NCBI GenBank assembly: GCA_034422835.1
Contig: DAOUJJ010000005.1
Location: 74,891 to 138,890, forward strand
Origin: Dehalococcoidia bacterium
Lineage (GTDB): Bacteria > Chloroflexota > Dehalococcoidia > UBA6926
Reading direction: 5' to 3'
Length of the DNA stretch: 64,000 nt
Each line of letters begins with the position of its first letter. The stretch's first letter is position 1. Position numbers and translations under genes: made by a program. Of the stretch, positions 1,527-63,931 are shown in pieces. The notes below the pieces were generated by a model. That model had not been told where the DNA came from. It saw only the letters and a list, made by a program, of their open reading frames with translations, and searched no databases.

Positions 1527-2414
1527 TTAGTGCGCTGCGCCGTCTGCGGGCTGCGTGCGGTTCATTCCCGCATGTGCCGCGTCGCGCTGCGCTATCAATA
1601 CTAGAGTACCGAGAAAATCAAGGGGGTGGACGGCGCGGAGCACGTTGGTGGGCTCGCCGTCATCGACGATCATACGGACGCCCGCCGCGCGCACGCGCTC
1701 TTCAACGGCCACCGGGTCGTCTGTCTCCAGCACGACGGCGTGCAGTCCCTCACCCATGAGCTTGAGGGCGCGGGCAACGGGGCCGTCTTCACGCAGGTCC
1801 TGAGCGAACTCGACCTCTGCATCTCCGGCGTCCAGCCACGCGGTGTCCATGCCGAACCCCTCGGAGACGGCGCGGCGCTTGAGCGGCATCCTGAACAGGT
1901 GCTGCCAGGTGGCCGACGCAGTGCCAACATCTGCCGTTCGGATGGTGACGTGGTGGAGGCCGATGTCCCGCGACGTGCCGGGCGTGAACAGGGTTGTTTC
2001 CTTGATCTCCACAGGAACGCCGCCGGTGCTGGCAGGGGAGATGATGGTGTTCTTGCCGGTGATGCCCTGTTGGGGAGTATGGACGATGAACTCACCGCCG
2101 CGTTCCTGGATCTCCGCCGTTGCCTGCTCAACGTCATCGACGTGGAAGCTGACGTGGTGCATACCCTCGCCGCGTTCCTCCAGTTGCTTGGCGAGCGGGG
2201 AGTCGTCGGTTGTGGGCTGGAGCAGCAAGAGACGGCCAAGCCGCAAAGGAATGATGGCGGCGCGATAACCCTCGTCATACGCATCCCGCTTGACGGTTGT
2301 GGTCAAGCCGAGAACGTCTTCGAATTTCTGTGCCGCCTCATCGATGTCTCGTACAAGGAGACCGACCTGGTCAAATCGCTGGAGGAGGAGGTCTTGCTGT
2401 TGGTCTGTCATCAT
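1527..2414 (-). CDS. two-domain VOC (glyoxalase/bleomycin-resistance/dioxygenase fold) protein, paralogue of the downstream gene
   Basis: 295 aa with two VOC modules. It shares the [14 protein letters not shown] motif with the adjacent 2433-3236 gene. Located between the two mutase subunits. Confidence 0.7.
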
Positions 2415-5203: not shown

Positions 5204-5227
5204 GGGAGGCGCTCAGGGTGTGGGGGA

Positions 5228-32754: not shown

Positions 32755-33129
32755 CTAGGTGGACACCGGCCCCGCAAAGTCTGGCGAATCATCGCCGTCA
32801 TCAGTTGCAAGAACCGGCCGTTGCACGGAAGTCAGCGTCTCAAGCGTCTCATCGGACCCGTCGGCCAGTTGGCGGACGGCAATGGTGACGAGCGTCTCTA
32901 TGTGGACGTGGGCGCGGGCGCCGAGTTCGAGTGACAGGCGGGCGGCATCCTCATGGGTGCGGGCCTCGACCATGGCAACGTAATCGTATTGTCCGAGGAC
33001 GGCGTAGCGCGCCAGCAACTGTGTGCCATCCACGTTAACCTCGTCGGCGACGTGAGAAAACATCTCCGGGTCGCGCAGCATCGCCTGCTGGCCCTCTTCA
33101 GTGACGGTACACAGGAATATGTAGAGCAT
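32755..33129 (-). CDS. GYD-domain protein
   Basis: 124 aa with the GYD signature (…YAVLGQYDYVAMVEARTHEDAARLSLELGA…). The C-terminal roughly 30 aa is acidic and disordered. Confidence 0.7.
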   Translation of the reverse strand: MLYIFLCTVTEEGQQAMLRDPEMFSHVADEVNVDGTQLLARYAVLGQYDYVAMVEARTHEDAARLSLELGARAHVHIETLVTIAVRQLADGSDETLETLTSVQRPVLATDDGDDSPDFAGPVST

Positions 33130-33213: not shown

Positions 33214-33747
33214 TTAGGTCAGTCCCCCCTCCATGTAGAGATAGCGGAGGAGGCCGGCGATTGATTTGGCGTCACGGATCTCGCCGCTGCGGATGAGGTC
33301 CGGGATATCGGCGGGAGGCGTCGGCACGACGGTGATTTCCTCGTCTGCGTCCGGCTCCACACCCTCAATGGGTGTCAGACCTGTAGCAAGAAAGAGATGC
33401 AGGAATTCGTCGCAGAAGCCGGGGGCGCTGTAGAAACCGCCCAGCGGCGCCATCGCCCCCGGATCGTGGGCAATCTCTTCCTGCAGCTCGCGCCGCGCCG
33501 TTATCTCGGGCTCTTCGCCTTCTTCACGTGTTCCGGCGGGGAGTTCAAGCAAGACATCACGGGCTGATGGACGGGGCTGGCGCACAAGCAGAATGTTGCC
33601 ATCAGAATCGACGGGCACCATGACAGCTGCGCCCGGATGCTGAATGGTCGTCCACATCTGCTCCCGTCCGCCGTCCAATCGCATATGGTCCTCATAGACG
33701 GTGACAATGCGGCCCTCATGGACGGCGCGGCGTGAAAGGCGTTCCAT
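33214..33747 (-). CDS. NUDIX hydrolase (ADP-ribose pyrophosphatase-like)
   Basis: Nudix box ELPAGTREEGEEPEITARRELQEEIA. Confidence 0.8.
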   Translation of the reverse strand: MERLSRRAVHEGRIVTVYEDHMRLDGGREQMWTTIQHPGAAVMVPVDSDGNILLVRQPRPSARDVLLELPAGTREEGEEPEITARRELQEEIAHDPGAMAPLGGFYSAPGFCDEFLHLFLATGLTPIEGVEPDADEEITVVPTPPADIPDLIRSGEIRDAKSIAGLLRYLYMEGGLT

Positions 33748-35331: not shown

Positions 35332-36243
35332 CTATGCCTCGTCCTTCACTATCTGAATGAGCACTCCCGCCGCGCTCTTGGGATGAATCCACGCGAACTC
35401 GTCATTCGGCTTGCCGATGAGCTTCAGGCCGTTGCCCTGCACGAAATCGGCCGCGGCCTTGACGTCCTTCGTCGCAAAAGCGATGTGGTGCATGGTGCCG
35501 CTTGCGCTGCCGCCGTACTTCTCCAGGAAACGCGCCGTGCCGCTCGTGCTGTCATCCGGCGAGACGGCGAGGATCCCGCCGCCATTGTCGCCGGCAGGGA
35601 TGCTCAGCACGCGGACGTTGTCCGACTCGATCTTTCGACCGCCCTTGAGGACGTTCGTCCTGAGCATGTCGGCTCGCATGCCGATGACGTTGCACCAGAA
35701 ATGGCGGGCCTTCTCCATATCGCCTGCGACGACGCCGATGTGGTTCATCCGCGTGAAAACGCCCTTGCCCTGGTAGCGCTTGCCGACGTGATGGTCGTCC
35801 GTGAACCAGATCTCCAGCAGGATGCCCATGCAGTCGCGCGGGTGGAAGAACGCAACGCTGTCGAATGGCTCGTTCCTGGCAAGCTCCTCCGGTGAGGCGG
35901 CAATCTGCTGGATGCCGGACGCGCGCAGGTGCGCAACGTCATCGGGCACGTTCGTGGAGTGCAGGCAGACGTGGTGGAGCGCACCAACGCCGCCGCGCCG
36001 CTCGATGAATGTATGCGTTCCGCCGGGCGGGGTGCCGTCCGCAGGCGGAGCGTTCATCTCAAGCTCAGCGTTGCCGATGGGAATATCGAGAATGTCCGTG
36101 GGATCCGGGCCGCGCTGCTTGCTGCCCTCCGGCAGCGGTGAGCGGGTCTGGTCGACGTTCAGGCCGAGCCCGTCCGCAAAGACGTTCTTGGCCGTCACGA
36201 GGTCGGCGATGGCGATTCCTGCGTGGTGAATTCTGTCAAACAA
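35332..36243 (-). CDS. two-domain VOC-fold protein (MFDRIHHAGIA… type), paralogue of 36291-37322
   Basis: 303 aa with two VOC modules (FDRIHHAGIAI…ALHHVCLHS; FTRMNHIGVVAGD…GTMHHIAFAT). Roughly 60% identical by eye to the neighbouring gene. Confidence 0.7.
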   Translation of the reverse strand: MFDRIHHAGIAIADLVTAKNVFADGLGLNVDQTRSPLPEGSKQRGPDPTDILDIPIGNAELEMNAPPADGTPPGGTHTFIERRGGVGALHHVCLHSTNVPDDVAHLRASGIQQIAASPEELARNEPFDSVAFFHPRDCMGILLEIWFTDDHHVGKRYQGKGVFTRMNHIGVVAGDMEKARHFWCNVIGMRADMLRTNVLKGGRKIESDNVRVLSIPAGDNGGGILAVSPDDSTSGTARFLEKYGGSASGTMHHIAFATKDVKAAADFVQGNGLKLIGKPNDEFAWIHPKSAAGVLIQIVKDEA

Positions 36244-36290: not shown

Positions 36291-37322
36291 TTACTCGCCC
36301 ACTATCTCGGCGACCTCAGCTTCAGTCACGCCGTATTCGCTCGCAAGCTCCCTATTTGTTCGGCCTACCGTCTTGCCCTGCCGGATTGCGCGCGCTCGCT
36401 CTGATGGGCTGAGCGGCCTGGGTTTGCCCAGATCGTCCTTGACGATCTGGATCAGGACGCCTGAGGCGCTCTTCGGATGAATCCATGCGCTGTCGTCAGT
36501 TGCGGCGCCGATGAGCTGAAGGCCGCGTGACTGCACAACGTCCGCGGCGGTCTTGACGTCGGCAGTGGCCAACGCGATGTGGTGCATCGTGCCACCGGCC
36601 CGCGCGCCGTACTTCTCAAGGAAACGCGCCGTGCCGCTCTCGCTGTCGTCGGGATGAACGCACGTGATGCCGGAATCGCCCATCGGCAGATTCAGAACAG
36701 TCACGTTGTCGGATTCCACGTGCCGGCCGCCCTTGAGGACGTTCGACCTGAACATATCGACACGGAAGCCAATGATATTCGTCCAGAAGTGGCGAGACTT
36801 CTCGATGTCTGTCGCCACGACGCCGATGTGCGCCATCCGTGTGAATAGGCCTTCACCCTGGTAGCGCATATCAACGCGGTGATTCTCAGTCGGCCATATC
36901 TCAAACAGGATGCCCATGCAGTCCCGCGGATGGAAGAATGCAACGTCCGTCCACGGCTCGTTCTCGGCAAGGACCTCCAGCGGCGCGGCAACCTGCTGTA
37001 GGCCGGAGGCCCGCAGGTGGCCTACGTCGTCTGCCATGTTGGTGGTATGCAGGCACACATGGTGGAGCGCGCCCAGCCCACCGCGTGATTCCACAAACCG
37101 ATGAACGCCCGTGCCCTCTGCGGCGGCGGCGTTCAGTTCAAGTTCTGAGTGCCCGATGGGAATATCGATGATGTCCGTCGGGTCCGCCCCTCGCTGCGCT
37201 CGACCCTGGGGCCGTGGAGAGCGAATCCCGTCGACGCGAAGCCCAAGTGCGTCTGCAAAGATGTCCGTAGCTCCCTGGAGATCGCCAACGGCGATTCCGG
37301 CGTGGTGGACACGGTCAAACAT
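36291..37322 (-). CDS. two-domain VOC-fold protein with a roughly 45-aa C-terminal HTH-like extension
   Basis: 343 aa with the same architecture as 35332-36243. It carries the tail LGKPRPLSPSERARAIRQGKTVGRTNRELASEYGVTEAEVAEIVGE, which resembles a helix-turn-helix of the sigma region-4 or transposase N-terminal type. Confidence 0.7.
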   Translation of the reverse strand: MFDRVHHAGIAVGDLQGATDIFADALGLRVDGIRSPRPQGRAQRGADPTDIIDIPIGHSELELNAAAAEGTGVHRFVESRGGLGALHHVCLHTTNMADDVGHLRASGLQQVAAPLEVLAENEPWTDVAFFHPRDCMGILFEIWPTENHRVDMRYQGEGLFTRMAHIGVVATDIEKSRHFWTNIIGFRVDMFRSNVLKGGRHVESDNVTVLNLPMGDSGITCVHPDDSESGTARFLEKYGARAGGTMHHIALATADVKTAADVVQSRGLQLIGAATDDSAWIHPKSASGVLIQIVKDDLGKPRPLSPSERARAIRQGKTVGRTNRELASEYGVTEAEVAEIVGE

Positions 37323-52428: not shown

Positions 52429-52435
52429 CCCCGCC

Positions 52436-53536: not shown

Positions 53537-55867
53537 CTACCCCTGCGCGTCCTGGATGGCGCGCCAGACACGCTCGGGCGTTAGCGGCATCTCAATGTGG
53601 CTGACACCGAGAGGAGAAAGTGCATCGACGACCGCGTTTACCACGGCGGACGGCGCGCCCGTCGTCGGGCCTTCGCCCATTCCCTTGACACCCAGTGAGT
53701 TCAGCGGGGAGGGCGTCTCCGAAAACGCCACGACGAATTCCGGCGTCATCTCAGCCGTCGGTATCGCATAATCCATCAGCGAGGCATTCAGGAGCTGTCC
53801 GGCCTGATCGTATTCGGAAATCTCGTACAGTGCCTGGCCGATGCCCTGCGTCGCGCCGCCATGCACCTGCCCCACCACCGTCATCGGGTTCACGATGACA
53901 CCCTGATCGTCGACGGTGTACAGGCGCTGTAGGTCAACGTCACCTGTTTCGATGTCTACATCAACGACGGCGATATACGTGCCGAAGTTGTACGTAAGGC
54001 CGCTCGGCTGGAAGAACGAGTCCTCATCCAGGCCGAATTCCATATCCGCCGGGCGCGCGAGCACCTGGAAAGACGCGTCGGCAACCTCGGCGAACGGGAG
54101 TCGTCGCTCCCCGTCCGTGGTGCAGATGAACACGCCGCCTTCCAGCGTTACCTGATCCGGCTCGCAGTTCATCATGTGGGCGGCGAGTTTCAGCATCTTG
54201 TCGCGCACCTTTTCGGCGGCGATCTTGGCGGACATGCCGCCCGTCACAAGCGCGCGGCTGCCGTATGTCCCGACTCCGTGCGCGATGGTGGCCGTGTCGC
54301 CATGGAGAACGGTCACGTCGGCATCTGAAATGCCAAAAACGTCGGCGACTATCTGGGCAAAGACGGTCTCGCCGCCCTGCCCATGTGGGGACGAGCCGGT
54401 GAACAGCGTGACCTTGCCGCCGCGGTCAACACGCACCCTGCCCCATTCGTAGCGGCTGCTGCTGGGATCAACCGGGCTGGGGCCGGAGCCGCCCGTCTTG
54501 ACCCAAGAGGCGATGCCGACGCCCATGTGACGCCCCTCCGCCCGTGCCTGCTGCTGCTGTTCTCGCAGTTGCTGATAGCTGCTGAGCTCCATGACTTGAT
54601 CCAAGGAGGCTTCGTAGTTTCCGCTGTCGAAAACATCCCCGCCGCCCGAGCGCATCGGCTGATCAAACGGCGGGAGGTAGTTGCGGCGTCGAATCTCTGT
54701 TGGATCGAGGCCAAGCTCACTGGCAAGTCGGTCCAGTCCGCGCTCGATGAGGTGAATGCCCTCCGGCCTGCCCGCGCCGCGGTACGGTCCCTGCGGCGTT
54801 GTATTCGTGTAGCCGTTCTCGACCTCGAATTCCACATTGGGTATGTCGTAGACACCGGTTGAAATCATGGCGGATGAGGCGGACAAGGACGGCTCAGGCC
54901 CCTTGGCGTACGCGCCGAGATCATGCAGATGGCGCACGCGGAGGCCGGTCAACTTGCCGTCCGCATCTGCGGAAACCTCCAGGTAGGATGTCTTGCCGCG
55001 CGCCTGGTGCATCGCCAAAAAGTCCTCGGTGCGCGTGGCAACCCACTTGACGGGCACGCCAAGCTGCATCGAGGCGATGCAGATGAGCGCATACTCCGGG
55101 TCCTCATGCTTCACGCCGAAACCGCCGCCAACATCCGGCGCAACCACGCGGACGCTGTCATTCGTCAGATGCAGGATCTCGGCAAGGTGATCACGCAGCG
55201 CGTGCGGCGTTTGAACCGTCGCCCACAGGCTCATCGTCTCCTGTACGGCGTCCCAGTGCGCGAGGCCGGCGCGGGGTTCCATCGGCACACCATGGATCTT
55301 CTGGTTCACGATCCGTTCACGAACGATAACCGCGGCCTCCTCGAATGCCTGGGAGACGTTCCCGAGTTGATAGCGCCAGTGGATGATCCCGTTCGGTCGG
55401 TCGTCATGGACGCGCGGGGCATCGTCTCTCAGCGCTTTCTCCACCTCGATTGCCGCCTCCAGCGGCTCGTAGTCGACAAAGATGAGGTCCGCCGCGTCCC
55501 GCGCTCCGTAGCGGGTATCAGCAACGACTACAGCGACAACTTCGCCGACATGTCGCGCCTTATCGACTGCAATCAGGTCATATGGAGCCGATTCCGCGTC
55601 GTAAAACTTCAGAGAGACGGTTGGATTGGTGCCGAATCGCGGGTGAATATCCTTTCCTGTCAGCACTGCGGTGACGCCGGGCGTCTGCAAGGCTGTCGAG
55701 GTGTCGATGCTGCGGATGCGCGCATGGGCGTGTGGACTGCGGACAAGGCTGGCCCATTGGATGCCGGGAACCTTGATGTCCTCGACAAACGCGCCGCGGC
55801 CACGCAGGAGCTTGTCATCCTCCCGCCGGGCGACCGACTGACCAACGAGTTTCGTATCCGTGGCCAT
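53537..55867 (-). CDS. form-II CoxL-like molybdopterin-binding large subunit (paralogue L')
   Basis: Shows MATDTKLVGQSVARREDDKLLRGRGAFVEDI and the active-site loop GPYRGAGRPEG (AYRGAGR type, not the AYXCSFR of bona fide CO dehydrogenase). The start is placed at ATG 55865-55867 with an AAAGGA Shine-Dalgarno, 20 nt after the FAD-subunit stop. Confidence 0.85.
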   Translation of the reverse strand: MATDTKLVGQSVARREDDKLLRGRGAFVEDIKVPGIQWASLVRSPHAHARIRSIDTSTALQTPGVTAVLTGKDIHPRFGTNPTVSLKFYDAESAPYDLIAVDKARHVGEVVAVVVADTRYGARDAADLIFVDYEPLEAAIEVEKALRDDAPRVHDDRPNGIIHWRYQLGNVSQAFEEAAVIVRERIVNQKIHGVPMEPRAGLAHWDAVQETMSLWATVQTPHALRDHLAEILHLTNDSVRVVAPDVGGGFGVKHEDPEYALICIASMQLGVPVKWVATRTEDFLAMHQARGKTSYLEVSADADGKLTGLRVRHLHDLGAYAKGPEPSLSASSAMISTGVYDIPNVEFEVENGYTNTTPQGPYRGAGRPEGIHLIERGLDRLASELGLDPTEIRRRNYLPPFDQPMRSGGGDVFDSGNYEASLDQVMELSSYQQLREQQQQARAEGRHMGVGIASWVKTGGSGPSPVDPSSSRYEWGRVRVDRGGKVTLFTGSSPHGQGGETVFAQIVADVFGISDADVTVLHGDTATIAHGVGTYGSRALVTGGMSAKIAAEKVRDKMLKLAAHMMNCEPDQVTLEGGVFICTTDGERRLPFAEVADASFQVLARPADMEFGLDEDSFFQPSGLTYNFGTYIAVVDVDIETGDVDLQRLYTVDDQGVIVNPMTVVGQVHGGATQGIGQALYEISEYDQAGQLLNASLMDYAIPTAEMTPEFVVAFSETPSPLNSLGVKGMGEGPTTGAPSAVVNAVVDALSPLGVSHIEMPLTPERVWRAIQDAQG

Positions 55868-55887
55868 GTCTTTGTCCTTTCTCGCGG

Positions 55888-56760
55888 TTATTCCCGGGCG
55901 CGCTCCACCGCCTGCGTGAGCGCGCGTTTGGTCAGCACGCGGCACAGATTCTGCCGATACTCCGGGGATCCGTGCAGGTCTGCAATGCACTCAAGGCCAT
56001 CCGCCGCCATGGCGGACGCCGCTGCAATGGCGTCCGGTGTCGGCACCTGCCCTCTCAGCGTCTCTTCGACGGCCGTTGCGCGGGCTGCGCGCGACGCCGC
56101 GCCGGTGATGCCCACGGCGACACGGGACAGGTAACCGCTGTCATCCAACGAAACGGCCGCGGCCACGCCGACGATGGCAAAGTGTGACGCCTTGTTCGCG
56201 AATTTGAGATAAGCCGCGCCCGTCCGCCCCTCTGAGATGGGGATGATAATCTCCGTGATGATCTCGTCCTCGGCAAGCGTTGTGATGAACGCGTCCATGA
56301 TGAGTTCATCAACGGATACGACGCGCACGCCGTTCGGCCCTGCAATCTCAACCTGCGCGTCAAGCGCAAGCAAGGTGGCGGGATAGTCGGCGACGGGGTC
56401 GGCGTGCGCGATGCTGCCGCCGAGCGTGCCGAGATTCCGCACCTGCACATCTGCGATCTCCGCGGCCGTTTCAGCCAGGACCGGAATCGTGTCAAGGACG
56501 ACGTCGGACCCGGCGACGTGAGCATGACTCGTCATCGAGCCGATTCGCAGATTGTTGCCGTCCGAGCTGATGTGGGACAACTCGCCGCGCGTCTTGCGCA
56601 AATCAACCACGAGGCCGGGCATGGCGACGCGGAGCTTCATCATCGGAAGGAGGCTCTGACCACCGGCAATGACCTTACCCTCGCCGGGCCGCTGTTGAAG
56701 GAGGATGATTGCCTCCGCAACAGAATCAGGGGCGGCGTAGTCGAATGCTCCGGGAATCAT
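55888..56760 (-). CDS. xanthine-dehydrogenase-family FAD-binding medium subunit (CoxM-like)
   Basis: Shows MIPGAFDYAAPDSVAEAI…GGQSLLPMMKLR. Its ATG overlaps the upstream L-subunit TGA (ATGA). Confidence 0.85.
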   Translation of the reverse strand: MIPGAFDYAAPDSVAEAIILLQQRPGEGKVIAGGQSLLPMMKLRVAMPGLVVDLRKTRGELSHISSDGNNLRIGSMTSHAHVAGSDVVLDTIPVLAETAAEIADVQVRNLGTLGGSIAHADPVADYPATLLALDAQVEIAGPNGVRVVSVDELIMDAFITTLAEDEIITEIIIPISEGRTGAAYLKFANKASHFAIVGVAAAVSLDDSGYLSRVAVGITGAASRAARATAVEETLRGQVPTPDAIAAASAMAADGLECIADLHGSPEYRQNLCRVLTKRALTQAVERARE

Positions 56761-59120
56761 GACTGATCTCCATTCTGCGCGTCCTGTATGGCGCGCCACA
56801 CGCACTCCGGCGTTAGCGGCATCGCGATGTCACGAACATTGAACGGGGCGAGAGCGTCAACAACTGCGTTGACCACGGCGGGGGGCGCGCCCGTCGTCGG
56901 CCCCTCTCCCATGCCCTTGACACCGAGTGGATTAGTTGGCGACGGAGTCTCGATGAATTCGGAGATGAATTCCGGCATCATCTCCGCCGTCGGCAGCGCA
57001 TAGTCCATTAGGGACCCGCTGAGCAGCTGGCCGTTCTCGTCGTAGACGATGTCCTCATAGAGCGCCTGGCCGATTCCCTGCGCTGCGCCGCCGTGAACCT
57101 GCCCCTCCACGATGACCGGATGCACGACCACGCCCTGGTCATCCACGCAGAACAATTGCTGCAGGTCTACGTCGCCTGTTTCAGGATCAACCTCCACCAC
57201 AGCGACATATGTGCCGTAGTTGAAGGTGAGGTGAGTCGGCTGGTAGAACGACGATTCGTCCAGTCCCATTTCCATGCTGGGCGGCCGCTCCAAGACCTGG
57301 TTGATTCGGGCAGCAACCTCGCGGAAGGTGATTGACGAGCCGTTGGCTGCGAACACGCCGTCCGTGAACTGCACGCCGTCCGGCTCTGCACCCAACGTGT
57401 GGGCAGCGAACCGGGTCATCTTTGCGAGGATCTTCTGGGAAGCCTGGAGCACGGCCATTCCGCCCACAACCATGTTCCGGCTGGCGAATGTGCCCATGCC
57501 ATACGTCACTGTCGCCGTATCACCGTGTGTGACGGAGATGTCGTCCAGTGGGACATGAAGAGTGTCCGCTGCCACCTGCGCGTAGGTTGTGTAGTTGCCC
57601 TGCCCGTGCGGCGAGGAACCCGTGTAGATGGTCACTGCTCCAGCGGGAGACACCTTCACACGCGCCCACTCAGGCATGGACGAGGAAGGGTCGAGGGACG
57701 ACGGGCCGAAGCCGCCGGTCTTGACCCAGGACGCGAGCCCGATCCCCAGATATTTCCCGTCTTCGCGCATTTCGCGTTGCCGCGCGCGCAAGCCCTCGTA
57801 GTCACTGACCTCAAGAGCCCGCTCCAGCGCCTCGGGGTAGTTTCCGCTGTCGTAGATGTCTCCGCCGGGCGTGCGGTAGTACGGGAACTCCTCCGGTTGG
57901 ATCATGTTCCGCCTGCGGATTTCCGCAGGGTCGATGTCGAGGTCACGCGCCAGCATGTCCATGGCGCGTTCGATCAGGTAGATTCCCTCGGGTCGACCGT
58001 ACCCGCGGTAGGCCCCCTCCGGCGTGTGGTTGGTGTAGACGGAATGGACTTCAAACGCGGCCTCTCGAATGCCATAGACACCGGTCGCGATGATGGCGGA
58101 TGTTTGCGCGACGATTGGAGTTGCGCCCTTGGGAAACGCGCCCAAATCCGTAGTGTGGCGGAGGCGCAGCGCCTTGACGCGACCGTCACGATCGGCGGCA
58201 ATCTCAAACTCCGAGGTTTTTCCACGCGCGTGGCTGAGGGATAGGAACTCTTCCGTGCGCGATGCAGCCCACTTGACCGGCAAGCCGAGCTCCATTGACG
58301 CGATGGCCAGAAGGAAGTACTCGACCTCTCCACCGTGTTTCGCGCCAAATCCCCCGCCGACGTCCGGCGCGACGGAGCGAATCTGATCGGGAGAAATGCC
58401 CAGCACCTCCGCCATCTGCGTTCGCAGTTCATGCGCACCCTGGATGGATGCCCAGATAGTCAGGAACTGCGTGGCGGGGTCCCAGTGGGCGATGCCGGCG
58501 CGCGGCTCCATGGGGACAGCGTGAATTCGCTGGTTGTTGAAATCATGCCGCAGGATAATCTCGGAGTCCTCGAACGTGCGGGACACATTCTCCGTGCTCT
58601 TGAGCCACCGAACCTGCTCATTGGAGCGGCCGTCATGCACTTCAGGCGCGCCGGGCTCCATCGCCTGCTCCGGTGTGTTGGCTACCCGCAGCGGCTCATA
58701 GTCGACTCTCAGCAGATCAGCCGCGTCGCGCGCCGCCTCCCGCGTCTCTCCAACGACAATGGCAACGATTTCCCCGGCGTACTTGGCCTTGTTCCTGGCG
58801 ATGAGGGTGAACGCGGGAGCGCCGCCTTCGTTGTCGCGATTCTCCGCGTCTCGCACGGCGAGAACGGGCGGAATCGGGTTATAGCGCGGATGGACATCCT
58901 CTCCGGTGAGAACACGCAGCGCTCCCGGATGAGCCAGCGCAGCCGAAGAATCGATATTGAGGATGCGGGCGTGAGCATGCGGGCTGCGGACGAAGTGCGC
59001 CCAGACGGTTCCAGGTATGTTGATGTCGTCGGAGAACGCGCCCTGCCCACGCAGCAGGCGATCATCTTCCTTGCGCCGGGGCGACTGGCCGATCTGACGA
59101 GGCGGGCTGTCTGTGGTCAT
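56757..59120 (-). CDS. form-II CoxL-like molybdopterin-binding large subunit (paralogue L)
   Basis: Shows MTTDSPPRQIGQSPRRKEDDRLLRGQGAFSDDI and the active-site loop GAYRGYGRPEG. The start is ATG 59118-59120 with a GGTGAGGTGAG Shine-Dalgarno, 10 nt after the S-subunit stop. Confidence 0.85.
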   Translation of the reverse strand: MTTDSPPRQIGQSPRRKEDDRLLRGQGAFSDDINIPGTVWAHFVRSPHAHARILNIDSSAALAHPGALRVLTGEDVHPRYNPIPPVLAVRDAENRDNEGGAPAFTLIARNKAKYAGEIVAIVVGETREAARDAADLLRVDYEPLRVANTPEQAMEPGAPEVHDGRSNEQVRWLKSTENVSRTFEDSEIILRHDFNNQRIHAVPMEPRAGIAHWDPATQFLTIWASIQGAHELRTQMAEVLGISPDQIRSVAPDVGGGFGAKHGGEVEYFLLAIASMELGLPVKWAASRTEEFLSLSHARGKTSEFEIAADRDGRVKALRLRHTTDLGAFPKGATPIVAQTSAIIATGVYGIREAAFEVHSVYTNHTPEGAYRGYGRPEGIYLIERAMDMLARDLDIDPAEIRRRNMIQPEEFPYYRTPGGDIYDSGNYPEALERALEVSDYEGLRARQREMREDGKYLGIGLASWVKTGGFGPSSLDPSSSMPEWARVKVSPAGAVTIYTGSSPHGQGNYTTYAQVAADTLHVPLDDISVTHGDTATVTYGMGTFASRNMVVGGMAVLQASQKILAKMTRFAAHTLGAEPDGVQFTDGVFAANGSSITFREVAARINQVLERPPSMEMGLDESSFYQPTHLTFNYGTYVAVVEVDPETGDVDLQQLFCVDDQGVVVHPVIVEGQVHGGAAQGIGQALYEDIVYDENGQLLSGSLMDYALPTAEMMPEFISEFIETPSPTNPLGVKGMGEGPTTGAPPAVVNAVVDALAPFNVRDIAMPLTPECVWRAIQDAQNGDQS

Positions 59121-59130
59121 GACACTCACC

Positions 59131-59610
59131 TCACCTGGAAAGTTGCTCCGCCGCGAATTCGATCGCCAGGACGATGTTCTGGTACCCCGTGCATCGACAC
59201 ATATTGCCCGCAAGCGCGTGACGTATTTCGTCACGGGTGGGGTTCGGGTTCTCGTTGAGGAGCGCCTTGGAGAGCATCAACATGCCGGGCGTGCAGAAAC
59301 CACATTGCAGTCCGTGCTTCTCCGCAAACGCCTGTTGGATGGGATGCAGATCGCCATCCGCGGCGGCAAGGCCCTCCACGGTCTCAATCTCTTGCCCGTC
59401 CGCCTGCGCGGCAAGCATCGAGCATGACTTGACCGCTTCCCCGTTAAGCAGAACCGTGCATGAGCCGCACTGGGACGTATCGCAACCGACGTGTGTGCCC
59501 GTCAGGCCGATGACATCACGGATGGCGTGAACAAGCAATAAGCGCGGCTCAACGTCTATGGAATGCTCGGTATTGTTGACGGTTAACGTAATTGACACCA
59601 AATCAGCCAT
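59131..59610 (-). CDS. (2Fe-2S)-binding small subunit (CoxS-like)
   Basis: Shows CxxGxCGxCxV…C (plant-type) and the C-terminal CGFCTPG…CRCTGY cluster motifs. The start is ATG 59608-59610 with a GGAGGGGAGG Shine-Dalgarno. Confidence 0.85.
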   Translation of the reverse strand: MADLVSITLTVNNTEHSIDVEPRLLLVHAIRDVIGLTGTHVGCDTSQCGSCTVLLNGEAVKSCSMLAAQADGQEIETVEGLAAADGDLHPIQQAFAEKHGLQCGFCTPGMLMLSKALLNENPNPTRDEIRHALAGNMCRCTGYQNIVLAIEFAAEQLSR

Positions 59611-59685
59611 AGCGCAGCAAGCCTCCCCTCCGTTTGCTACCCTCGCCGATGCTATTCCCACTGTGCGCGGGCGGTCAACTATTTA

Positions 59686-59752: not shown

Positions 59753-59756
59753 AAGG

Positions 59757-60200
59757 CTATCCCTGCGCAGCAGCCTCTCGTGAGAGAGCCTCAAAGAACT
59801 GCCCCATCAGCATCCGCACGGCGGTCTGGATCATGCGCGATCCGATCTGCGCCAACGTCCCGCCCACCTGCGCGTCTGCCTCAACAGCGACAAGCGTGCC
59901 GTCACCGTCGGGGGAGAGTGTGATCGCGCCCTCTCCGGAGACGAAACCTGTCGGCCCCTGCCCACTCAGCGTCATCTTGTATGACTCGTTGACGGCAATG
60001 TCTTCAATTTCCACCGTGCCGTTGAATCGTCCCCTGATTGGACCAACGCCAACCGCAAGCATCGCGGAGAATTTTGTGGGCGTCTCCACGTCAAGGCTCT
60101 GACATCCCGGAACCATCCGCTGCAAAGCAACGGGGTCATGCAGCAATTCCCACACACGCTCACGCGGCGCATGGACGGTATGGCTGCCGCTGATGTTCAT
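59757..60200 (-). CDS. coxG: CoxG-like SRPBCC-fold protein (carbon monoxide dehydrogenase subunit G family)
   Basis: 147 aa with the MNISGSHTVHAPRERVWELLHDPVALQRMVPGCQSL… CoxG N-terminal signature. Confidence 0.75.
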   Translation of the reverse strand: MNISGSHTVHAPRERVWELLHDPVALQRMVPGCQSLDVETPTKFSAMLAVGVGPIRGRFNGTVEIEDIAVNESYKMTLSGQGPTGFVSGEGAITLSPDGDGTLVAVEADAQVGGTLAQIGSRMIQTAVRMLMGQFFEALSREAAAQG

Positions 60201-60205
60201 GCGGG

Positions 60206-61198
60206 TTAGTCAGTCGGTCCTGCGACGGGTGTGGCCGGGCGCGGCGGCTCAATAGCCACGCGCATTCCCTCTTCAAGTTGCCCGCGCACATCGTCGATGC
60301 TGGTGAGATGATGTTGTTCCACATAGGTCTTCAACCCGTCGATGACGTCCAGCATCGTTGTGGGACGTGTGAAATTGGCGGTGCCGACCGCGACGGCCGT
60401 CGCGCCCGCAAGGATGAACTCTAACGCATCCTTGGCAGACGTGATGCCGCCCATCCCGATAACAGGGAGCGAAACTGCAGCGCACACCTGCCAGACCATG
60501 CGAACGGCAATGGGACGGATGGCGGGACCGGAGACGCCGCCGGTCATCGTGCCCGTGACGGTTCTCTGATTGTCCACGTCGATAACCATGCCGGACAGGG
60601 TGTTGATGGCGGAGATGGCCGTCGCACCGCCCTGCTCTGAGGCCTGCGCGATATCAGCGATATTGGTGATATTCGGCGTGAGCTTGGCGATGACGGGGCC
60701 ATCGAAACGGTCCGACACGCCGCGCACAACGCGTTCAACATTGGCCGGGCTTGCGCCGATCTCCATGCCGCCCGCCTCAAGGTTCGGGCAGGAGATATTG
60801 ACCTCAAGCCCCGCGACGCCCGGTTCGCCGTTCAGCCGCTCAGCAAGGCGGTCGTATTCCTCGATCCCCAGCCCGCCGATGCTCACGACGACGGGCGAAT
60901 CGTACTTCGTATACTCGGGCAGGAGCTCGGTGAGGAAATGCTCGACGCCGCGCGACGGGATGCCGATGGAGTTGAGCATTCCGGCGGGAGATTCGGCGGT
61001 GCGGGGGGCGGGATTGCCTGCGCGTTCACCGTAGAAGATGGTCTTGGGAACGAGCGCGCCGAGCCGGCCAAGGTCAAACAGGGTTCCCATCTCCGGCCCG
61101 AAACAGCCGGATGCGGGCATGACCGGATTCTTGAGGGTCAGCCCGGCGCCGAGGTCAACCCCTAGCCTGCTGTCGGTCTCAGTGTCCTGTACGGCCAT
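60206..61198 (-). CDS. dihydroorotate-dehydrogenase-like flavoprotein, catalytic subunit (class 1B PyrD fold; possible dihydropyrimidine dehydrogenase subunit)
   Basis: Shows LKNPVMPASGCFGPE, …VNISCPNLEAGG… (active-site Cys) and …GGVSGPAIRPIA…, a TIM-barrel FMN enzyme of the DHOD/DPD family. Confidence 0.8.
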   Translation of the reverse strand: MAVQDTETDSRLGVDLGAGLTLKNPVMPASGCFGPEMGTLFDLGRLGALVPKTIFYGERAGNPAPRTAESPAGMLNSIGIPSRGVEHFLTELLPEYTKYDSPVVVSIGGLGIEEYDRLAERLNGEPGVAGLEVNISCPNLEAGGMEIGASPANVERVVRGVSDRFDGPVIAKLTPNITNIADIAQASEQGGATAISAINTLSGMVIDVDNQRTVTGTMTGGVSGPAIRPIAVRMVWQVCAAVSLPVIGMGGITSAKDALEFILAGATAVAVGTANFTRPTTMLDVIDGLKTYVEQHHLTSIDDVRGQLEEGMRVAIEPPRPATPVAGPTD

Positions 61199-61201
61199 CC
61201 C

Positions 61202-62119
61202 CTATACAGTAACGCCTGCCGGGTGACAGCGAAAGACGGGGCCGTCACGGCATACGAGCGGTGATTCCGCCGACTCCCCAAACGCGCCCGTTGCGCAGGA
61301 ATGGCAGTAGCCCAGACCGCAGGCCATATGGGCCTCAAGGGAGACGTACGTCTCAACATCCGCAGGAGCGGCGAGTCGGGTTGTCAGTTCGATCAGGCGG
61401 TTAGAGCCGCAGACGTAGGCCTGGTCGACGCGGCCCGAGTCAATGATCTCGCTGATCCACGGCTCCACGTTCCTGACGTCGCTGCTCCCATCAGCATCGT
61501 CGACATAGAGGGCGTGGCCGCGAGCCCTTTTGATGATGTCTTGCCCAAGGATGACATTCTTGTTGCGGGCGCTGAACACCGCGTATATCTCGATATTGCG
61601 CTGCTTGGCCTCGTCGATAAGCGTTGTCAGGGAACACACGCCGATGCCGCGCCCCACGATAAGAATGCCGTTGGCGTCATCGGAAATCGGGAATGGCCTC
61701 CCTACGGGGCCGACAATCTCCACGATATCCCCCGCCCTGCGCTGTGCCATCGCCGCCGTTCCATACCCCACAACGCGATAGACAAAATCAGCAGTGCCCG
61801 CCGCCTTGTCATAGCGATAAACGGCCATGGGGCGCGGCAGGATGGGGTGGACGTCCGTCGCTGAGCCGGGACGGATCACGCCGAATTGACCCGGCTCGCC
61901 GTTCGCCAATGCCTCGGAGCGCACGCGCATCAGATAGTGCTCCGGCGCGATCTCGTCGTTGGAGATGATCTCGGTTTCGACGAATGTCGCAGGCGGCGTA
62001 TGCGACCCGTTCGTGCGCATCACTTCCAGCCGCACGCTGGACGGCAGCCGTAGTTGCGGGACGTGCGTACCCGCGAAAACGGGAATCGTCCCGTTGGCGT
62101 CCATGAGTTCAGCTGTCAT
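61202..62119 (-). CDS. PyrK-like electron-transfer subunit (FAD/NAD-binding plus C-terminal [2Fe-2S])
   Basis: An FNR-like flavin domain plus the C-terminal MACGLGYCHSCATG…C cysteine cluster characteristic of PyrK. Overlaps the amidase gene by 4 nt. Confidence 0.75.
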   Translation of the reverse strand: MTAELMDANGTIPVFAGTHVPQLRLPSSVRLEVMRTNGSHTPPATFVETEIISNDEIAPEHYLMRVRSEALANGEPGQFGVIRPGSATDVHPILPRPMAVYRYDKAAGTADFVYRVVGYGTAAMAQRRAGDIVEIVGPVGRPFPISDDANGILIVGRGIGVCSLTTLIDEAKQRNIEIYAVFSARNKNVILGQDIIKRARGHALYVDDADGSSDVRNVEPWISEIIDSGRVDQAYVCGSNRLIELTTRLAAPADVETYVSLEAHMACGLGYCHSCATGAFGESAESPLVCRDGPVFRCHPAGVTV

Positions 62120-63453
62120 TCGGCAACCTCTTTCGTCAGGAAGGAGTCAATGTCCCGGATGCTCTCCGCGAGCGCCTGCGCGCCGATGGCGATGTCCTCC
62201 ATGCTCGTCCATTCTTCCGGGCAGTGGCTGAGACCGTCGCGGCTCGGCACAAAGAGCATTGCGGCAGGGATGGTGCGAGAGAGGATGCCGGCATCGTGCC
62301 CCGCCCCGCTCGTCGTCACTCGGTGCGGCACGCCAAGGCGGTCCGTGGCTGCGGTGGTGAGATCACGCAGCCACTTGGGCAGCACCACGGGTGAGGTATC
62401 CGACACAACCTCCCAGTCACAGCGCAGTCCGCGGCGGGCAGCCGTTTCCTCAGCGCGCGTAACAATGTCATTCGTCGTCAGCCGTTGGCGGTCGCTGTCC
62501 ACGTCGCGCACGTCAAGATAGAACTCCACGTCGCCGGGGATGGTGGTGATGCTGTTGGGAAAGACGTGGAGACGTCCGACGGTAGCAACGGTGGCGCGGC
62601 GGCGCGGCTCATTAGCAATGGACTCCGCTGCAAGAATGACTTCAGCTGCGGCGGCCAACGCATCACGCCGCTGGGACATGGGGGTGCCGCCTGAATGGTC
62701 CTGGCGGCCTCGTATCACAAGACGGATGCGGGTGTTTCCCGCGATGGCGTCCACAAGGCCGATGCGCTCTCCCGATTCCTCCAGTGACCGCGCCTGCTCA
62801 ATGTGCAGCTCAAGGAAGGCGGCAAGAGTGTTCGGAGCCCATCGCGCCTGCGGCAAGGCAAGAGGATCGAAGCTCAGCGCGCGCATCGCTTGGGCGAGCG
62901 TGGTGCCGTTCGCGTCACGCAGTCGCTCAAGATCGCGTTCCTGCAGGACACCGGCTATAGCCTTGCTGCCAAGGCACGGCTCGCCGAATCGCGCGCCTTC
63001 CTCAGAGGCAAATGCAATCGCCATGAGCGGATGGGCTGTTTTGATGTCTGCTTCAGTGAACATGCGGATGACTTCCAGCGCGGCAAGAACGCCAACGGCT
63101 CCGTCAAATCGCCCGCCGTGCGGTACGGAATCAAGATGTGAGCCGAAACCGATAGCGGGCCGGTTCGGGTCAGTCCCGGGCAGTGTTGCGACTGTGTTGC
63201 CGAAACTGTCCGTGCGGACGGAGAGGCCGAGGTCTACCATCCAACCTGAGACAAGATCGTGGGCCGCGCGCTCTTCCTGCGAAAACGCAATGCGCGAGAC
63301 GCCGCTGCCCGGCTCTGCGCCAATCTCTGACAAGCGTTCCAAGTCGGCTGCGATACGGCCGGGATCGGCGCGCAGCTCAGAGACAGCGACCTCGGATTCC
63401 TCCGCCGCGTCCGCCGATCCGGCCGCGAGCTCCTGCTCAGTCGTTGCCATCAA
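62116..63453 (-). CDS. M20-family Zn-dependent carbamoyl-amidohydrolase (allantoate amidohydrolase / N-carbamoyl-amino-acid or beta-ureidopropionase type)
   Basis: 445 aa carrying metal-ligand motifs of the AllC/HyuC/AmaB family (GSHLDSVPHGGRFDGAVGVLAALE, …EEGARFG…, …DHSGGTPM…, …GAGHDAG…). Confidence 0.8.
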   Translation of the reverse strand: MMATTEQELAAGSADAAEESEVAVSELRADPGRIAADLERLSEIGAEPGSGVSRIAFSQEERAAHDLVSGWMVDLGLSVRTDSFGNTVATLPGTDPNRPAIGFGSHLDSVPHGGRFDGAVGVLAALEVIRMFTEADIKTAHPLMAIAFASEEGARFGEPCLGSKAIAGVLQERDLERLRDANGTTLAQAMRALSFDPLALPQARWAPNTLAAFLELHIEQARSLEESGERIGLVDAIAGNTRIRLVIRGRQDHSGGTPMSQRRDALAAAAEVILAAESIANEPRRRATVATVGRLHVFPNSITTIPGDVEFYLDVRDVDSDRQRLTTNDIVTRAEETAARRGLRCDWEVVSDTSPVVLPKWLRDLTTAATDRLGVPHRVTTSGAGHDAGILSRTIPAAMLFVPSRDGLSHCPEEWTSMEDIAIGAQALAESIRDIDSFLTKEVAE

Positions 63454-63931
63454 CCCTCACCCTTACTGATATGAGCGAAAGCTCGTTTGCAACCTCACCC
63501 ACCCCAACCAGGGAGGCGGTAACCGCCAACCTGCCGCCCCTGTTCTCGACGAAAGCCCTGGCAAGATTGGCGTCGCGTTCGCTGAGAGTAACGCCCACCA
63601 AGGCGACTTCCTGCCCCGCCCCAACGTTGCCGGAAGCCGTGACAAGCCCCTCTGCATCAGACAGCAGGATGACAGGCTTGTCTACTCGCACGCCGATGGC
63701 AAATGCTAACACGACGTTGGACAGCCCCGGCCACGCGGCGATGATATCAGGCGCAGGAGATGGCAGCGCGTCCGACAGGCATCCGGCCAGTTCAGAGACG
63801 GCAGTGGGATTCGCCAGCGGCTCCATCGCCCCGGCAACCCAGCCGCTTTGGCCGTCGTCGGAATCCTCCAACTGCCCCTCAATAAGGCAGCCGGTGGACT
63901 TTAAAAGGTCAACAATATTCGTGTCATTCAT
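63437..63931 (-). CDS. hypothetical protein (weak phosphoribosyltransferase-like impression only)
   Basis: 164 aa, acidic, overlapping the amidase by 17 nt. Good GC3 bias. There is no convincing motif. The segment VALVGVTLSERDA resembles a PRPP-binding loop only loosely. Confidence 0.4.
   Translation of the reverse strand: MNDTNIVDLLKSTGCLIEGQLEDSDDGQSGWVAGAMEPLANPTAVSELAGCLSDALPSPAPDIIAAWPGLSNVVLAFAIGVRVDKPVILLSDAEGLVTASGNVGAGQEVALVGVTLSERDANLARAFVENRGGRLAVTASLVGVGEVANELSLISVRVRVDGND

What the first reader, a model, noticed from the sequence alone, without database searches (positions are those of the whole stretch)
53537..59610. CoxS-CoxL-CoxM-CoxL' cluster: two form-II-like catalytic paralogues sharing one FeS and one FAD subunit
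The gene order on the minus strand is (2Fe-2S) small subunit, large subunit L (AYRGYGR loop), FAD medium subunit, then large subunit L' (PYRGAGR loop). The S-L junction and the M-L' junction have 10- and 20-nt gaps, and L-M shows ATGA coupling. Neither large subunit has the AYXCSFR signature of true CO dehydrogenase. Both are form II putative enzymes of unknown substrate. A four-gene arrangement with two different catalytic subunits implies two substrate specificities on a common electron-transfer scaffold, or a heteromeric (LL')(M)(S) enzyme. A coxG accessory gene lies immediately upstream.
Basis: partly seen in the sequence, partly recalled or inferred. Interest (0 to 1): 0.5.

Follow-up and report, generated by a model that had tools for sequence, protein, structure and literature searches.

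The report
Two-catalytic-subunit molybdenum hydroxylase operon
A sponge-type Dehalococcoidia bacterium carries an operon with one iron-sulfur gene, one flavin gene and two different, both intact, molybdenum catalytic-subunit genes, so two enzymes of unknown substrate (not CO dehydrogenases) most likely share one electron-transfer module; this is an unusual layout of an ordinary enzyme family.

Summary
On the minus strand lie S (59610..59131), L (59120..56757, AYRGYGR), M (56760..55888) and L' (55867..53537, PYRGAGR), with 10-nt and 20-nt gaps and an ATGA overlap.

- **Both large subunits are functional.** L and L' are 57% identical and full length. Both keep the catalytic Glu and Gln and are under strong purifying selection (dN/dS about 0.05 across 15-17 genomes). 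Neither is a CO dehydrogenase.
- **The four genes form their own transcription unit.** A promoter-like GTTGACC-N17-ATAGCATCG upstream of S is invariant in 10 genomes.
- **Related genomes are the most informative evidence.** Related genomes at the same locus carry S-M-L' without L. L-type genes elsewhere sit in canonical S-L-M operons. The window's M (and probably S) descends from such an operon. So this S/M lineage has served L alone, L' alone, and here both.
- **Most likely history.** An ancestral S-L-M operon acquired L' downstream, and L was later lost in sister lineages.
- **Active sites differ.** Each clade has its own conserved active-site signature, which argues for two substrate specificities.
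- **Still unknown.** Substrates are unknown, and subunit sharing is inferred rather than shown.
- **Context.** Orphan large subunits are common in this family, including a third in this window.

I rate this a new variant of a known kind, of moderate interest.

The parts
59649..59678 (-). Promoter-like site (TTGACC-18 nt-TAGCAT) about 39 nt upstream of the S start.
   Evidence: It is the only sigma-70-like match in 7.1 kb. The core GTTGACC...ATAGCATCG is invariant in 10 genomes while the flanks vary. Those genomes include the L-lacking relatives and genomes with a gene inserted between coxG and S.
59131..59610 (-). S: [2Fe-2S] small subunit, 159 aa. It is the only one in the window.
   Evidence: Pfam Fer2_2 1e-36 plus Fer2. 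All eight cluster cysteines can be read in the translation. It is 74-84% identical to S of the S-M-L' loci. dN/dS is 0.069.
56757..59120 (-). L: molybdopterin-binding large subunit, 787 aa. Its clade signature is Q[GS]AH, AYRGYGR, GQG[NT]xT (conserved Glu missing) and GTFASR.
   Evidence: Pfam and NCBIfam, PDB alignments and clade signatures. Orthologues of 63-72% identity sit in S-L-M operons. dN/dS is 0.053 in 17 genomes.
55888..56760 (-). M: FAD-binding medium subunit, 290 aa. It is the only one in the window, and its ATG overlaps the L stop (ATGA).
   Evidence: Pfam FAD_binding_5 2e-45 plus CO_deh_flav_C. It is 71-79% identical to M of the S-M-L' loci and 58-67% identical to M of L-type S-L-M operons. 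The rooted tree is. dN/dS is 0.069.
53537..55867 (-). L': second molybdopterin-binding large subunit, 776 aa. Its clade signature is QTPH, GVK-HEDPEY (one-residue deletion), TPQGPYRGAGR, GQGGET and GTYGSR.
   Evidence: Orthologues of 79-85% identity are the sole large subunit in S-M-L' loci. Deeper relatives (69-70%) are orphan genes. dN/dS is 0.048 in 15 genomes.
59757..60200 (-). CoxG-like SRPBCC protein, 147 aa. It is a likely quinone carrier for the enzyme, but it is encoded at the end of the upstream pyr-type operon.
   Evidence: PF06240 1e-26. It starts 5 nt after the pyrD stop. Four genomes have an opposite-strand gene between it and S. The role of CoxG is described in PMC12202499.

Best explanation
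This is one operon for a xanthine-oxidase-family molybdenum hydroxylase. A single electron-transfer module is made of S (two [2Fe-2S] clusters) and M (FAD). That module is used by two alternative catalytic subunits, L and L'.

**Proposed enzymes.** Each large subunit most likely assembles with S and M into its own (large-M-S)2 isoenzyme. Mixed dimers are possible but not required. Each hydroxylates a different substrate at its molybdenum-pterin site, using the conserved Gln and catalytic Glu. Electrons then pass through the two FeS clusters to FAD, and probably on to respiratory quinone through the neighbouring CoxG-type carrier. Neither subunit oxidises CO.

**Substrates.** These are unknown. 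L carries an aromatic Tyr where CODH has Phe390. Its orthologues elsewhere are paired with a divergently transcribed amidase. On that weak basis I guess that L acts on an aromatic or N-heterocyclic, amide-derived compound. L' has the ordinary form-II-like loop.

**History.** The arrangement most likely arose from a canonical S-L-M operon to which an orphan-type paralogue, L', was added downstream. Sister lineages later deleted L and kept S-M-L'.

**What is shown.** Gene structure, integrity, conservation, purifying selection, phylogeny and active-site differences.

**What is inferred.** Physical sharing of S and M, isoenzymes rather than a heteromer, quinone coupling, and substrate class.
For: - **Tight operon with its own promoter.** The four genes have 10-nt, -4-nt and 20-nt junctions, each with a Shine-Dalgarno-like motif. 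A promoter-like site is conserved in 10 genomes.
- **Few S/M genes among those scanned.** I found no other S or M gene among the ORFs scanned in the 64 kb, but three large-subunit genes. A few small ORFs were not scanned.
- **Both large subunits are maintained.** They are intact, with dN/dS of 0.053 and 0.048, in 17 and 15 species-level genomes.
- **L' works with S and M alone.** Loci L075, L079 and L080 are the same syntenic locus with S-M-L' only. Their S and M are orthologous to the window's (S 74-84%, M 71-79% identity).
- **L-type works with S and M alone.** L-type genes of 63-72% identity lie in S-L-M operons.
- **Common descent of M.** In a rooted tree, the M of the S-(L)-M-L' loci is nested in the grade of M from those S-L-M operons (bootstrap 97-100% for the deeper nodes, 61% for the sister node). 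The L tree has the same branching order.
- **Distinct active sites.** Clade-specific signatures are conserved within each clade and differ between them, while the catalytic Glu (GMGEGP) and Gln are kept in both.
- **Tyr at the CODH Phe390 position.** The Tyr of AYRGYGR aligns with Phe390 of the CODH loop.
- **Quinone coupling.** CoxG acts as a quinone shuttle for Mo-CODH and is associated with other family members (PMC12202499).
Against: - There is no biochemical or expression data.
- I could not census S and M genes across a whole genome of this clade. Another S/M pair elsewhere is not excluded.
- One copy each of S and M for two large subunits implies unequal translation or sub-stoichiometric assembly. 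This is untested.
- The gain-or-loss history is not settled. Counting events on the species tree favours one insertion of L over two or three losses. No L-type protein of 73-89% identity was found.
- The substrate guess rests on one aligned residue and one conserved neighbour, the amidase, seen in only two loci.
- The window's CoxG lacks the C-terminal membrane helix of the characterised M. smegmatis protein. It is also coupled to pyrD, not to S.
Confidence: 0.6

Rival explanations
1. The product is an obligate heteromeric enzyme, (L-L')M2S2. One molecule carries two different active sites, for example for two successive hydroxylations of one substrate.
For: The family forms dimers of heterotrimers through contacts between large subunits (established knowledge; structures 1N5W and 8UEM are listed). 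The two genes are co-transcribed and 57% identical, so mixed dimers are sterically plausible. Successive hydroxylations by one family member are known for xanthine dehydrogenase (my own knowledge).
Against: L' is the only large subunit in the syntenic S-M-L' loci of related genomes. L-type is the only one in S-L-M operons. Each can therefore function without the other, so a heterodimer cannot be obligatory.
Confidence: 0.1
2. The four genes are only co-regulated. One of the two large subunits, or the orphan third one, pairs with S and M proteins encoded elsewhere in the genome, so nothing is truly shared.
For: Orphan large-subunit genes are very common. In a sample of distant relatives, 26 of 37 large-subunit genes with at least 4 kb of flank on both sides have no S or M within 4 kb. 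Pairing in trans must therefore happen often. Sponge symbionts carry many COG1529 copies per genome (PMC8941161).
Against: L sits exactly between S and M with translational-coupling distances. L' follows M by 20 nt. The relatives with S-M-L' leave L' no other partner in cis. I found no second S or M among the ORFs scanned in the window.
Confidence: 0.15
3. L is a recent insertion, horizontal or by recombination from a relative, into an older S-M-L' operon. The ancestral S-L-M-plus-L' history proposed above is then wrong, and the current co-existence is a newly acquired function.
For: On the concatenated tree the L-containing genomes form one group, and the three L-lacking genomes branch outside it. 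That means one gain against two or three losses. No L-type protein of 73-89% identity exists among 5.8 billion clusters. Junctions of this operon do accept foreign genes: a 143-aa ORF lies between M and L' in L004 and L014, and a 676-aa gene lies between coxG and S in four genomes.
Against: M of the S-(L)-M-L' loci is nested within M of L-type S-L-M operons, and the L and M trees have the same branching order. An L-type partner between S and M is therefore the ancestral state. A regain would have to restore the same gene type at the same place and in the same orientation.
Confidence: 0.3
4. One or both proteins are aerobic CO dehydrogenases, as automatic annotation names them.
For: The best solved-structure matches are Mo-Cu CODH large subunits: 8UEM at 571/538 bits and 1N5W at 504/476 bits. 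Many database homologues are labelled carbon-monoxide dehydrogenase large subunit.
Against: The Cu-binding Cys loop (AYRCSFR) is absent, and the loop is one residue shorter. TIGR02416 scores of 606 and 590 are far below the cut-off of 991. The gene order is not M-S-L. No coxD/E/F genes were found nearby.
Confidence: 0.02

Closest known systems
Form II 'putative CO dehydrogenase' (CoxS-CoxL-CoxM clusters with an AYRGAGR loop)
   Same: It has the same three-subunit Mo/FeS/FAD architecture. The S-L-M order holds for L. The loop lacks the Cu-binding Cys. The substrate is unknown. Canonical AYRGAGR proteins are the next relatives, at about 43-46% identity.
   Different: Each loop differs from the motif by one residue (AYRGYGR and PYRGAGR). 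A second large-subunit gene follows M. L also lacks the Glu of the conserved GQGxET motif and has GTFASR in place of GTYGSR.
Form I Mo-Cu CO dehydrogenase (Afipia/Oligotropha carboxidovorans CoxMSL, 1N5W; Mycobacterium smegmatis, 8UEM)
   Same: These are the best structural matches. They share the fold, the Gln240 and Glu763 equivalents, an (LMS)2 assembly, and an associated CoxG.
   Different: There is no AYxCSFR Cys loop, no M-S-L gene order and no coxDEF genes. The scores fall well below the family cut-off.
Quinoline 2-oxidoreductase (1T3Q) and 6-hydroxypseudooxynicotine dehydrogenase (7DQX)
   Same: Both are characterised N-heterocycle hydroxylases from the same CoxL-like branch. They match at 475 and 446 bits, close to the CODH scores.
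   Different: Each has one large subunit per enzyme. There is no evidence here for those specific substrates, and I did not examine residue-level active-site correspondence.
Archaeal glyceraldehyde oxidoreductase (NCBIfam NF041018/19/20; 4ZOH)
   Same: This is the best-scoring curated family for all three subunit types.
   Different: All scores fall below the equivalog cut-offs: 631/636 against 790, 292 against 350, and 243 against 290. It is a bacterial protein in a different genomic context.
Eubacterium barkeri nicotinate dehydrogenase (3HRD), which has two molybdopterin-subunit genes
   Same: The operon holds more than one gene for the molybdopterin-binding component.
   Different: In that enzyme the two genes are the N- and C-terminal halves of one large subunit (425 and 330 aa). 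Here both genes are complete large subunits.

Membership tests
Xanthine oxidase / molybdenum hydroxylase family, three-subunit (LMS)2 type | The large subunit has a/b-hammerhead plus two MoCo-binding domains, the small subunit has two [2Fe-2S] domains, and the medium subunit has FAD-binding and CO_deh_flav_C domains. | tested here: met
   Pfam hits cover the full length of all four proteins.
Xanthine oxidase / molybdenum hydroxylase family, three-subunit (LMS)2 type | The catalytic Glu (CODH Glu763) and the Mo-oxo Gln (CODH Gln240) are conserved. | tested here: met
   GMGEGP and the loop Gln are present in L, L' and all clade members.
Form I Mo-Cu CO dehydrogenase | The active-site loop is AYxCSFR, with the Cu-ligand Cys. 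| tested here: not met
   L has AYRGYGR and L' has PYRGAGR. Alignment to 1N5W and 8UEM shows no Cys and a one-residue deletion.
Form I Mo-Cu CO dehydrogenase | The score reaches the TIGR02416 or NF040766 cut-off. | tested here: not met
   Scores are 606 and 590 against 991, and 563 and 583 against 950.
Form I Mo-Cu CO dehydrogenase | The gene order is coxM-S-L, with coxD/E/F maturation genes. | tested here: not met
   The order is S-L-M-L'. No MoxR/VWA/XdhC-type genes were found among the scanned ORFs of the window or in the gene calls of L001.
Form II putative CODH (King and Weber definition, recalled from memory; motif use confirmed in the papers) | The loop is AYRGAGR. | tested here: inconclusive
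   Each protein differs by one residue, and the nearest canonical AYRGAGR proteins are only 43-46% identical. They are form-II-like, not canonical members.
Form II putative CODH | The gene order is coxS-coxL-coxM. | tested here: met
   This holds for S-L-M in the window and in the L-type operons L072, L082 and the P0002 contig. L' lies outside that order.
Glyceraldehyde oxidoreductase (NF041018/19/20) | The score reaches the curated equivalog cut-off for each subunit. | tested here: not met
   All three subunit types fall below the cut-off.
Shared-scaffold enzyme (one S/M module, several large subunits) | Both large subunits physically associate with the same S and M proteins. | not testable with these tools
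   The support is comparative only. Testing it needs co-purification or multimer modelling.

The most novel reading that the evidence does not exclude
The S/M pair may be a generic electron-transfer module that services several interchangeable catalytic large subunits: L, L' and possibly the orphan third one 21 kb away. If so, large subunits can be added to or dropped from the module over evolutionary time. The S-L-M-L' and S-M-L' sister genomes would be snapshots of that process. This would explain the many orphan coxL-like genes of Chloroflexota, Actinomycetota and sponge symbionts as a plug-in catalytic repertoire on few scaffolds.
Probability: 0.4. Interest if true: 0.55.

Novelty: new variant of a known kind. 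Interest (0 to 1): 0.38.

Why it matters
Genes annotated as coxL far outnumber coxS and coxM in many environmental bacteria, and most have no known substrate (PMC8941161). How the orphans obtain electron-transfer partners is an open practical question, and automatic pipelines still label many of them as CO dehydrogenase.

This locus places two different catalytic subunits in one operon with one S and one M. Close relatives have lost one of the two. That gives a compact, testable system for subunit sharing and for how new specificities are added to an existing redox scaffold.

It does not reveal a new enzyme chemistry, and the substrates remain unknown.

Tried and rejected
- **Pseudogene hypothesis.** Rejected. 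There are no stops in 15-17 genomes and dN/dS is about 0.05. The split L in L081 is best explained by a 4.9x long-read assembly that also breaks pyrD, the kinase gene and u164.
- **S-L-M module swapped in by recombination.** Rejected. The window's M is orthologous to the M of the S-M-L' loci (71-79% identity), not to that of L072 (58%).
- **ATGA overlap as proof of an ancestral L-M junction.** Not decisive. Every M starts ATGAT, so any upstream frame ends there, and the L tails after IQDAQ are not homologous.
- **Functional link to the upstream genes (pyrE, a 164-aa unknown, M20 carbamoylase, pyrK, pyrD).** Not supported. pyrE and pyrD pass the biosynthetic family cut-offs. S has its own conserved promoter. 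Four genomes carry an opposite-strand gene between coxG and S.
- **AlphaFold2 on the 164-aa protein.** The mean pLDDT was 44, so the model is unusable and no fold search was run.
- **Metagenome scan for the P0002 contig.** I wanted to see what follows M there. The scan returned only relatives of 44% identity or less. The DNA of that contig was unavailable.
- **Rfam scan of 50000-64000.** No matches.
- **Literature.** Five searches found no described operon with two complete large subunits and one S/M pair. The library is incomplete, so absence of a precedent is not proven.


Full report
**1. What is there**

Reading the minus strand gives four closely packed genes:
- S, 59610..59131, 159 aa.
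- L, 59120..56757, 787 aa.
- M, 56760..55888, 290 aa.
- L', 55867..53537, 776 aa.

The S-L gap is 10 nt, L and M overlap as ATGA, and the M-L' gap is 20 nt. Each start is preceded by a purine-rich Shine-Dalgarno-like stretch.

Pfam assigns the domains expected of a three-subunit molybdenum hydroxylase. S has two [2Fe-2S] domains. M has the FAD-binding and CO_deh_flav_C domains. Each large subunit has the hammerhead and both MoCo-binding domains. L and L' are 57% identical over their full length.

**2. Not CO dehydrogenases, and not any named enzyme**

The nearest solved structures are Mo-Cu CODH large subunits: 8UEM at 571/538 bits and 1N5W at 504/476 bits. Quinoline 2-oxidoreductase (475 bits) and 6-hydroxypseudooxynicotine dehydrogenase (446 bits) come next.

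In those alignments the Cu-binding Cys of the AYRCSFR loop is missing and the loop is one residue shorter. No NCBIfam equivalog cut-off is reached. CODH scores 606/590 against a cut-off of 991. The best-scoring family, archaeal glyceraldehyde oxidoreductase, scores 631/636 against 790. The equivalents of CODH Gln240 and the catalytic Glu763 are present in both proteins.

No coxD/E/F or xdhC-type genes were found among the ORFs I scanned in the window or in the gene calls of the 8 kb beyond its end. A few small ORFs were not scanned.

**3. Source and conservation**

The window is part of a 164-kb metagenome scaffold. The genome scan found 17 species-level Dehalococcoidia genomes of about 1.6-2.4 Mb with L at 91-98% identity. 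Several isolate names suggest sponge metagenomes, which I did not verify.

Where the contigs extend far enough, these genomes carry the same locus. It reads: a divergent Amidohydro_2 gene, then pyrE, a 164-aa unknown, an M20 carbamoylase-family amidase, pyrK-like, pyrD, coxG, S, L, M and L', followed by a convergent ychF.

Pairwise dN/dS medians are 0.053 (L), 0.048 (L'), 0.069 (S) and 0.069 (M), with no internal stops. Both large subunits are therefore maintained by selection, which disposes of the pseudogene alternative.

**4. Transcription unit**

The only sigma-70-like match in 7.1 kb lies in the 146-nt coxG-S spacer (59678..59649). Aligned across ten genomes, GTTGACC-N17-ATAGCATCG is invariant while the surrounding spacer is not. 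Those genomes include four with extra DNA between coxG and S (a 676-aa opposite-strand membrane-protein gene where I examined it, in L006) and the L-lacking relatives.

S-L-M-L' therefore has its own promoter. coxG starts 5 nt after the pyrD stop and belongs to the upstream unit.

**5. The informative relatives**

L and L' belong to a Dehalococcoidia-centred group of large subunits that are at least 55% identical to each other. The group splits into several clades:
- The L clade, with AYRGYGR.
- The L' clade, with TPQGPYRGAGR.
- Further clades with TPDSPYRGAGR or TPE[AT]PYRGAGR.

These clades differ in genomic context:
- Members of the further clades that I looked up are orphan genes with no S or M nearby (L073, L074, L076). 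The deepest L' relatives are also orphans (L077).
- L-type genes outside the window clade sit in canonical S-L-M operons with 4-nt overlaps. Examples are L072 at 65%, L082 at 66% and the P0002 contig at 72% identity. In two of these an amidase gene is divergently transcribed upstream of S.
- Three genomes whose L' is 79-85% identical (L075, L079, L080) have the same syntenic locus, from Amidohydro_2 through coxG, but with S-M-L' and no L.

The window's S and M are orthologous to the S and M of those three loci (S 74-84%, M 71-79% identity).

**6. History**

On a concatenated tree the L-containing genomes form one group, and L080, L079 and L075 branch outside it. Event counting alone therefore favours one insertion of L.

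The rooted M tree points the other way. The M subunits of all S-(L)-M-L' loci form a clade (100% bootstrap). That clade is nested inside a grade of M subunits from L-type S-L-M operons: the P0002 contig, then L082, then L072. The L tree has the same branching order. An L-type gene between S and M is therefore the ancestral condition for this S/M lineage.

The simplest full account has three steps. An S-L-M operon came first. An orphan-type L' was then added after M. L was later deleted in the L075 group, L079 and L080.

Loss followed by regain from a close relative is not excluded. I put about 0.3 on a secondary insertion of L. Two observations keep that option open:
- No L-type protein of 73-89% identity was found.
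- Foreign genes do land in this operon's junctions, for example a 143-aa ORF between M and L' in L004 and L014.

**7. Why this supports sharing**

Whichever history is right, this S/M lineage has been paired with an L-type subunit alone (S-L-M operons), with L' alone (S-M-L' genomes) and with both (the window clade). That is the strongest available argument that both large subunits use the operon's S and M.

It also argues against an obligate L-L' heteromer, because each type is self-sufficient elsewhere.

Among the ORFs I scanned in the window there is no other S or M gene. There is a third, distantly related large subunit at 32626..30395 (743 aa, 30% identical to L', XdhA/HcrA-like), flanked by unrelated genes.

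I could not count S and M genes across a whole genome, so a second pair elsewhere remains possible.

**8. Different active sites**

The segments that line the cofactor and substrate site have clade-specific residues, conserved within each clade:

| Segment | L clade | L' clade |
|---|---|---|
| Gln loop | Q[GS]AH | QTPH |
| GGGFG region | GAKH.GEVEY | GVK-HEDPEY (one-residue deletion) |
| Active-site loop | AYRGYGR | TPQGPYRGAGR |
| Pterin-binding motif | GQG[NT]xT (usual Glu lost) | GQGGET |
| GSR motif | GTFASR | GTYGSR |

The extra Tyr of L aligns with Phe390 of the CODH loop. From memory, it also corresponds to the substrate-stacking Phe914 of bovine xanthine oxidase, but I did not test that correspondence. 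These differences fit two substrate specificities.

The substrates themselves are not identifiable. The amidase neighbour of L-type operons and the aromatic loop residue hint at an aromatic or N-heterocyclic compound for L. This is a guess.

**9. Electron path**

By analogy with the family, electrons go from Mo through the two FeS clusters of S to the FAD of M. Kropp et al. showed that CoxG binds menaquinone and couples Mo-CODH to the respiratory chain. They also showed that CoxG homologues accompany other family members (PMC12202499).

The CoxG here is only the 147-aa SRPBCC domain, without the C-terminal membrane helix of the M. smegmatis protein. Its role is therefore inferred.

**10. How unusual is it?**

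I examined 132 loci of more distant CoxL-like genes fetched from genomes and metagenomes. None has a tight S-L-M-L arrangement, and seven have two large subunits within the fetched flanks.

Of the 37 large-subunit genes with at least 4 kb on both sides, 26 have no S or M within 4 kb. Orphan large subunits are therefore the rule in this sample. Published work on sponge symbionts reports many COG1529 copies per genome, most of unknown function (PMC8941161).

The idea that large subunits borrow S and M is thus implicit in the field. What is new here is a cis arrangement that makes it explicit, together with sister genomes that differ by one catalytic gene. Five literature searches found no described precedent, but the library is incomplete.

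**11. Verdict**

It is a new variant of a known kind of enzyme system. Interest is moderate (0.38). It offers a clean test case for subunit sharing and for the turnover of catalytic subunits, but no new chemistry and no identified substrate.

Noticed in passing
window 30395..32626 (-): A third xanthine-oxidase-family large subunit of 743 aa. It is only 30% identical to L' and is XdhA/4-hydroxybenzoyl-CoA-reductase-like by NCBIfam, below all cut-offs. No S or M gene is next to it. Its neighbours are a DNA-alkylation-repair gene, a GYD-domain gene (32755..33129) and a NUDIX gene (33214..33747). One deep L' relative (L077) also sits next to a NUDIX gene.
   Followed up: partly
window 59757..61198 (-): coxG starts 5 nt after the pyrD stop and is similarly coupled in the L-lacking relatives. 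It is therefore co-transcribed with pyrK-pyrD rather than with the hydroxylase genes. It lacks the C-terminal membrane helix of the characterised M. smegmatis CoxG. Whether it also serves the PyrDK dehydrogenase is unexplored.
   Followed up: partly
window 61202..63931 (-) and L001 4568..5125: There is an operon-like string: pyrE, a 164-aa protein with no family, an M20 hydantoinase/carbamoylase-family amidase (overlapping pyrK by 4 nt), a divergent pyrK-like gene (133 bits against a cut-off of 219) and pyrD. A carbamoyl-amino-acid amidase embedded among pyrimidine biosynthesis genes is odd. It could indicate an orotate or dihydropyrimidine catabolic role rather than biosynthesis.
   Followed up: partly
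window 63437..63931 (-): The 164-aa protein has no Pfam or NCBIfam hit and evolves fastest in the cluster (dN/dS 0.12; 51-64% identity to the outgroup copies). A profile comparison gives a weak match to the adjacent PyrE over 67 columns (31% identity, E 4e-4, probability 34%). It may be a degenerate phosphoribosyltransferase paralogue. The AlphaFold2 single-sequence model was unusable (pLDDT 44).
   Followed up: partly
L006 7267..9297 (-); also L009, L016, L017: In four related genomes there is extra DNA between coxG and S. In L006, the one I examined, it is a 676-aa multi-pass membrane-protein gene on the opposite strand. The promoter-like motif upstream of S is retained in L006 and L017, the two of these genomes included in the promoter alignment.
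   Followed up: partly
L004 13279..13710 (+); also L014: A 143-aa ORF with no obvious relatives is inserted between M and L' in two genomes. It lengthens that junction from 20 nt to about 510 nt without disrupting either gene.
   Followed up: no
L011, between pyrD (about 5112-6100) and coxG (8987): About 2.9 kb of extra DNA separates pyrD from coxG in this genome. I did not examine its content.
   Followed up: no
L073 8772..12349 and L074 8766..12352: Orphan large subunits of the TPETPYRGAGR clade lie directly downstream of a luciferase-like (Bac_luciferase) monooxygenase gene in two other Dehalococcoidia genomes. This may be a conserved pairing.
   Followed up: no
L072 8010..9365 (-) and L082 1041..2126 (-): An amidase-signature (PF01425) gene is divergently transcribed just upstream of S in both L-type S-L-M operons that I could inspect. 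L072 also has a polysaccharide-deacetylase-family gene, a 788-aa CoA-transferase gene and an MFS transporter gene nearby. This is a possible catabolic cluster for the L-type enzyme.
   Followed up: partly
window 1527..2414, 35332..36243 and 36291..37322 (-): Three genes encode two-domain glyoxalase/extradiol-dioxygenase-superfamily proteins, two of them in tandem. Elsewhere the window is largely housekeeping: methylmalonyl-CoA mutase, ispG, dxr, rseP-like, uppS, pyrH, frr, tsf, rpsB, secDF, ruvB and a nuo operon at about 37.5-47.9 kb.
   Followed up: no
L081 (whole locus): This low-coverage (4.9x) long-read contig shows frameshift-split genes throughout, including L, pyrD, the Ser/Thr kinase gene and the 164-aa gene. 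The 600-aa L fragment in the protein database (P0003) is probably an assembly artefact, not a decaying gene.
   Followed up: yes
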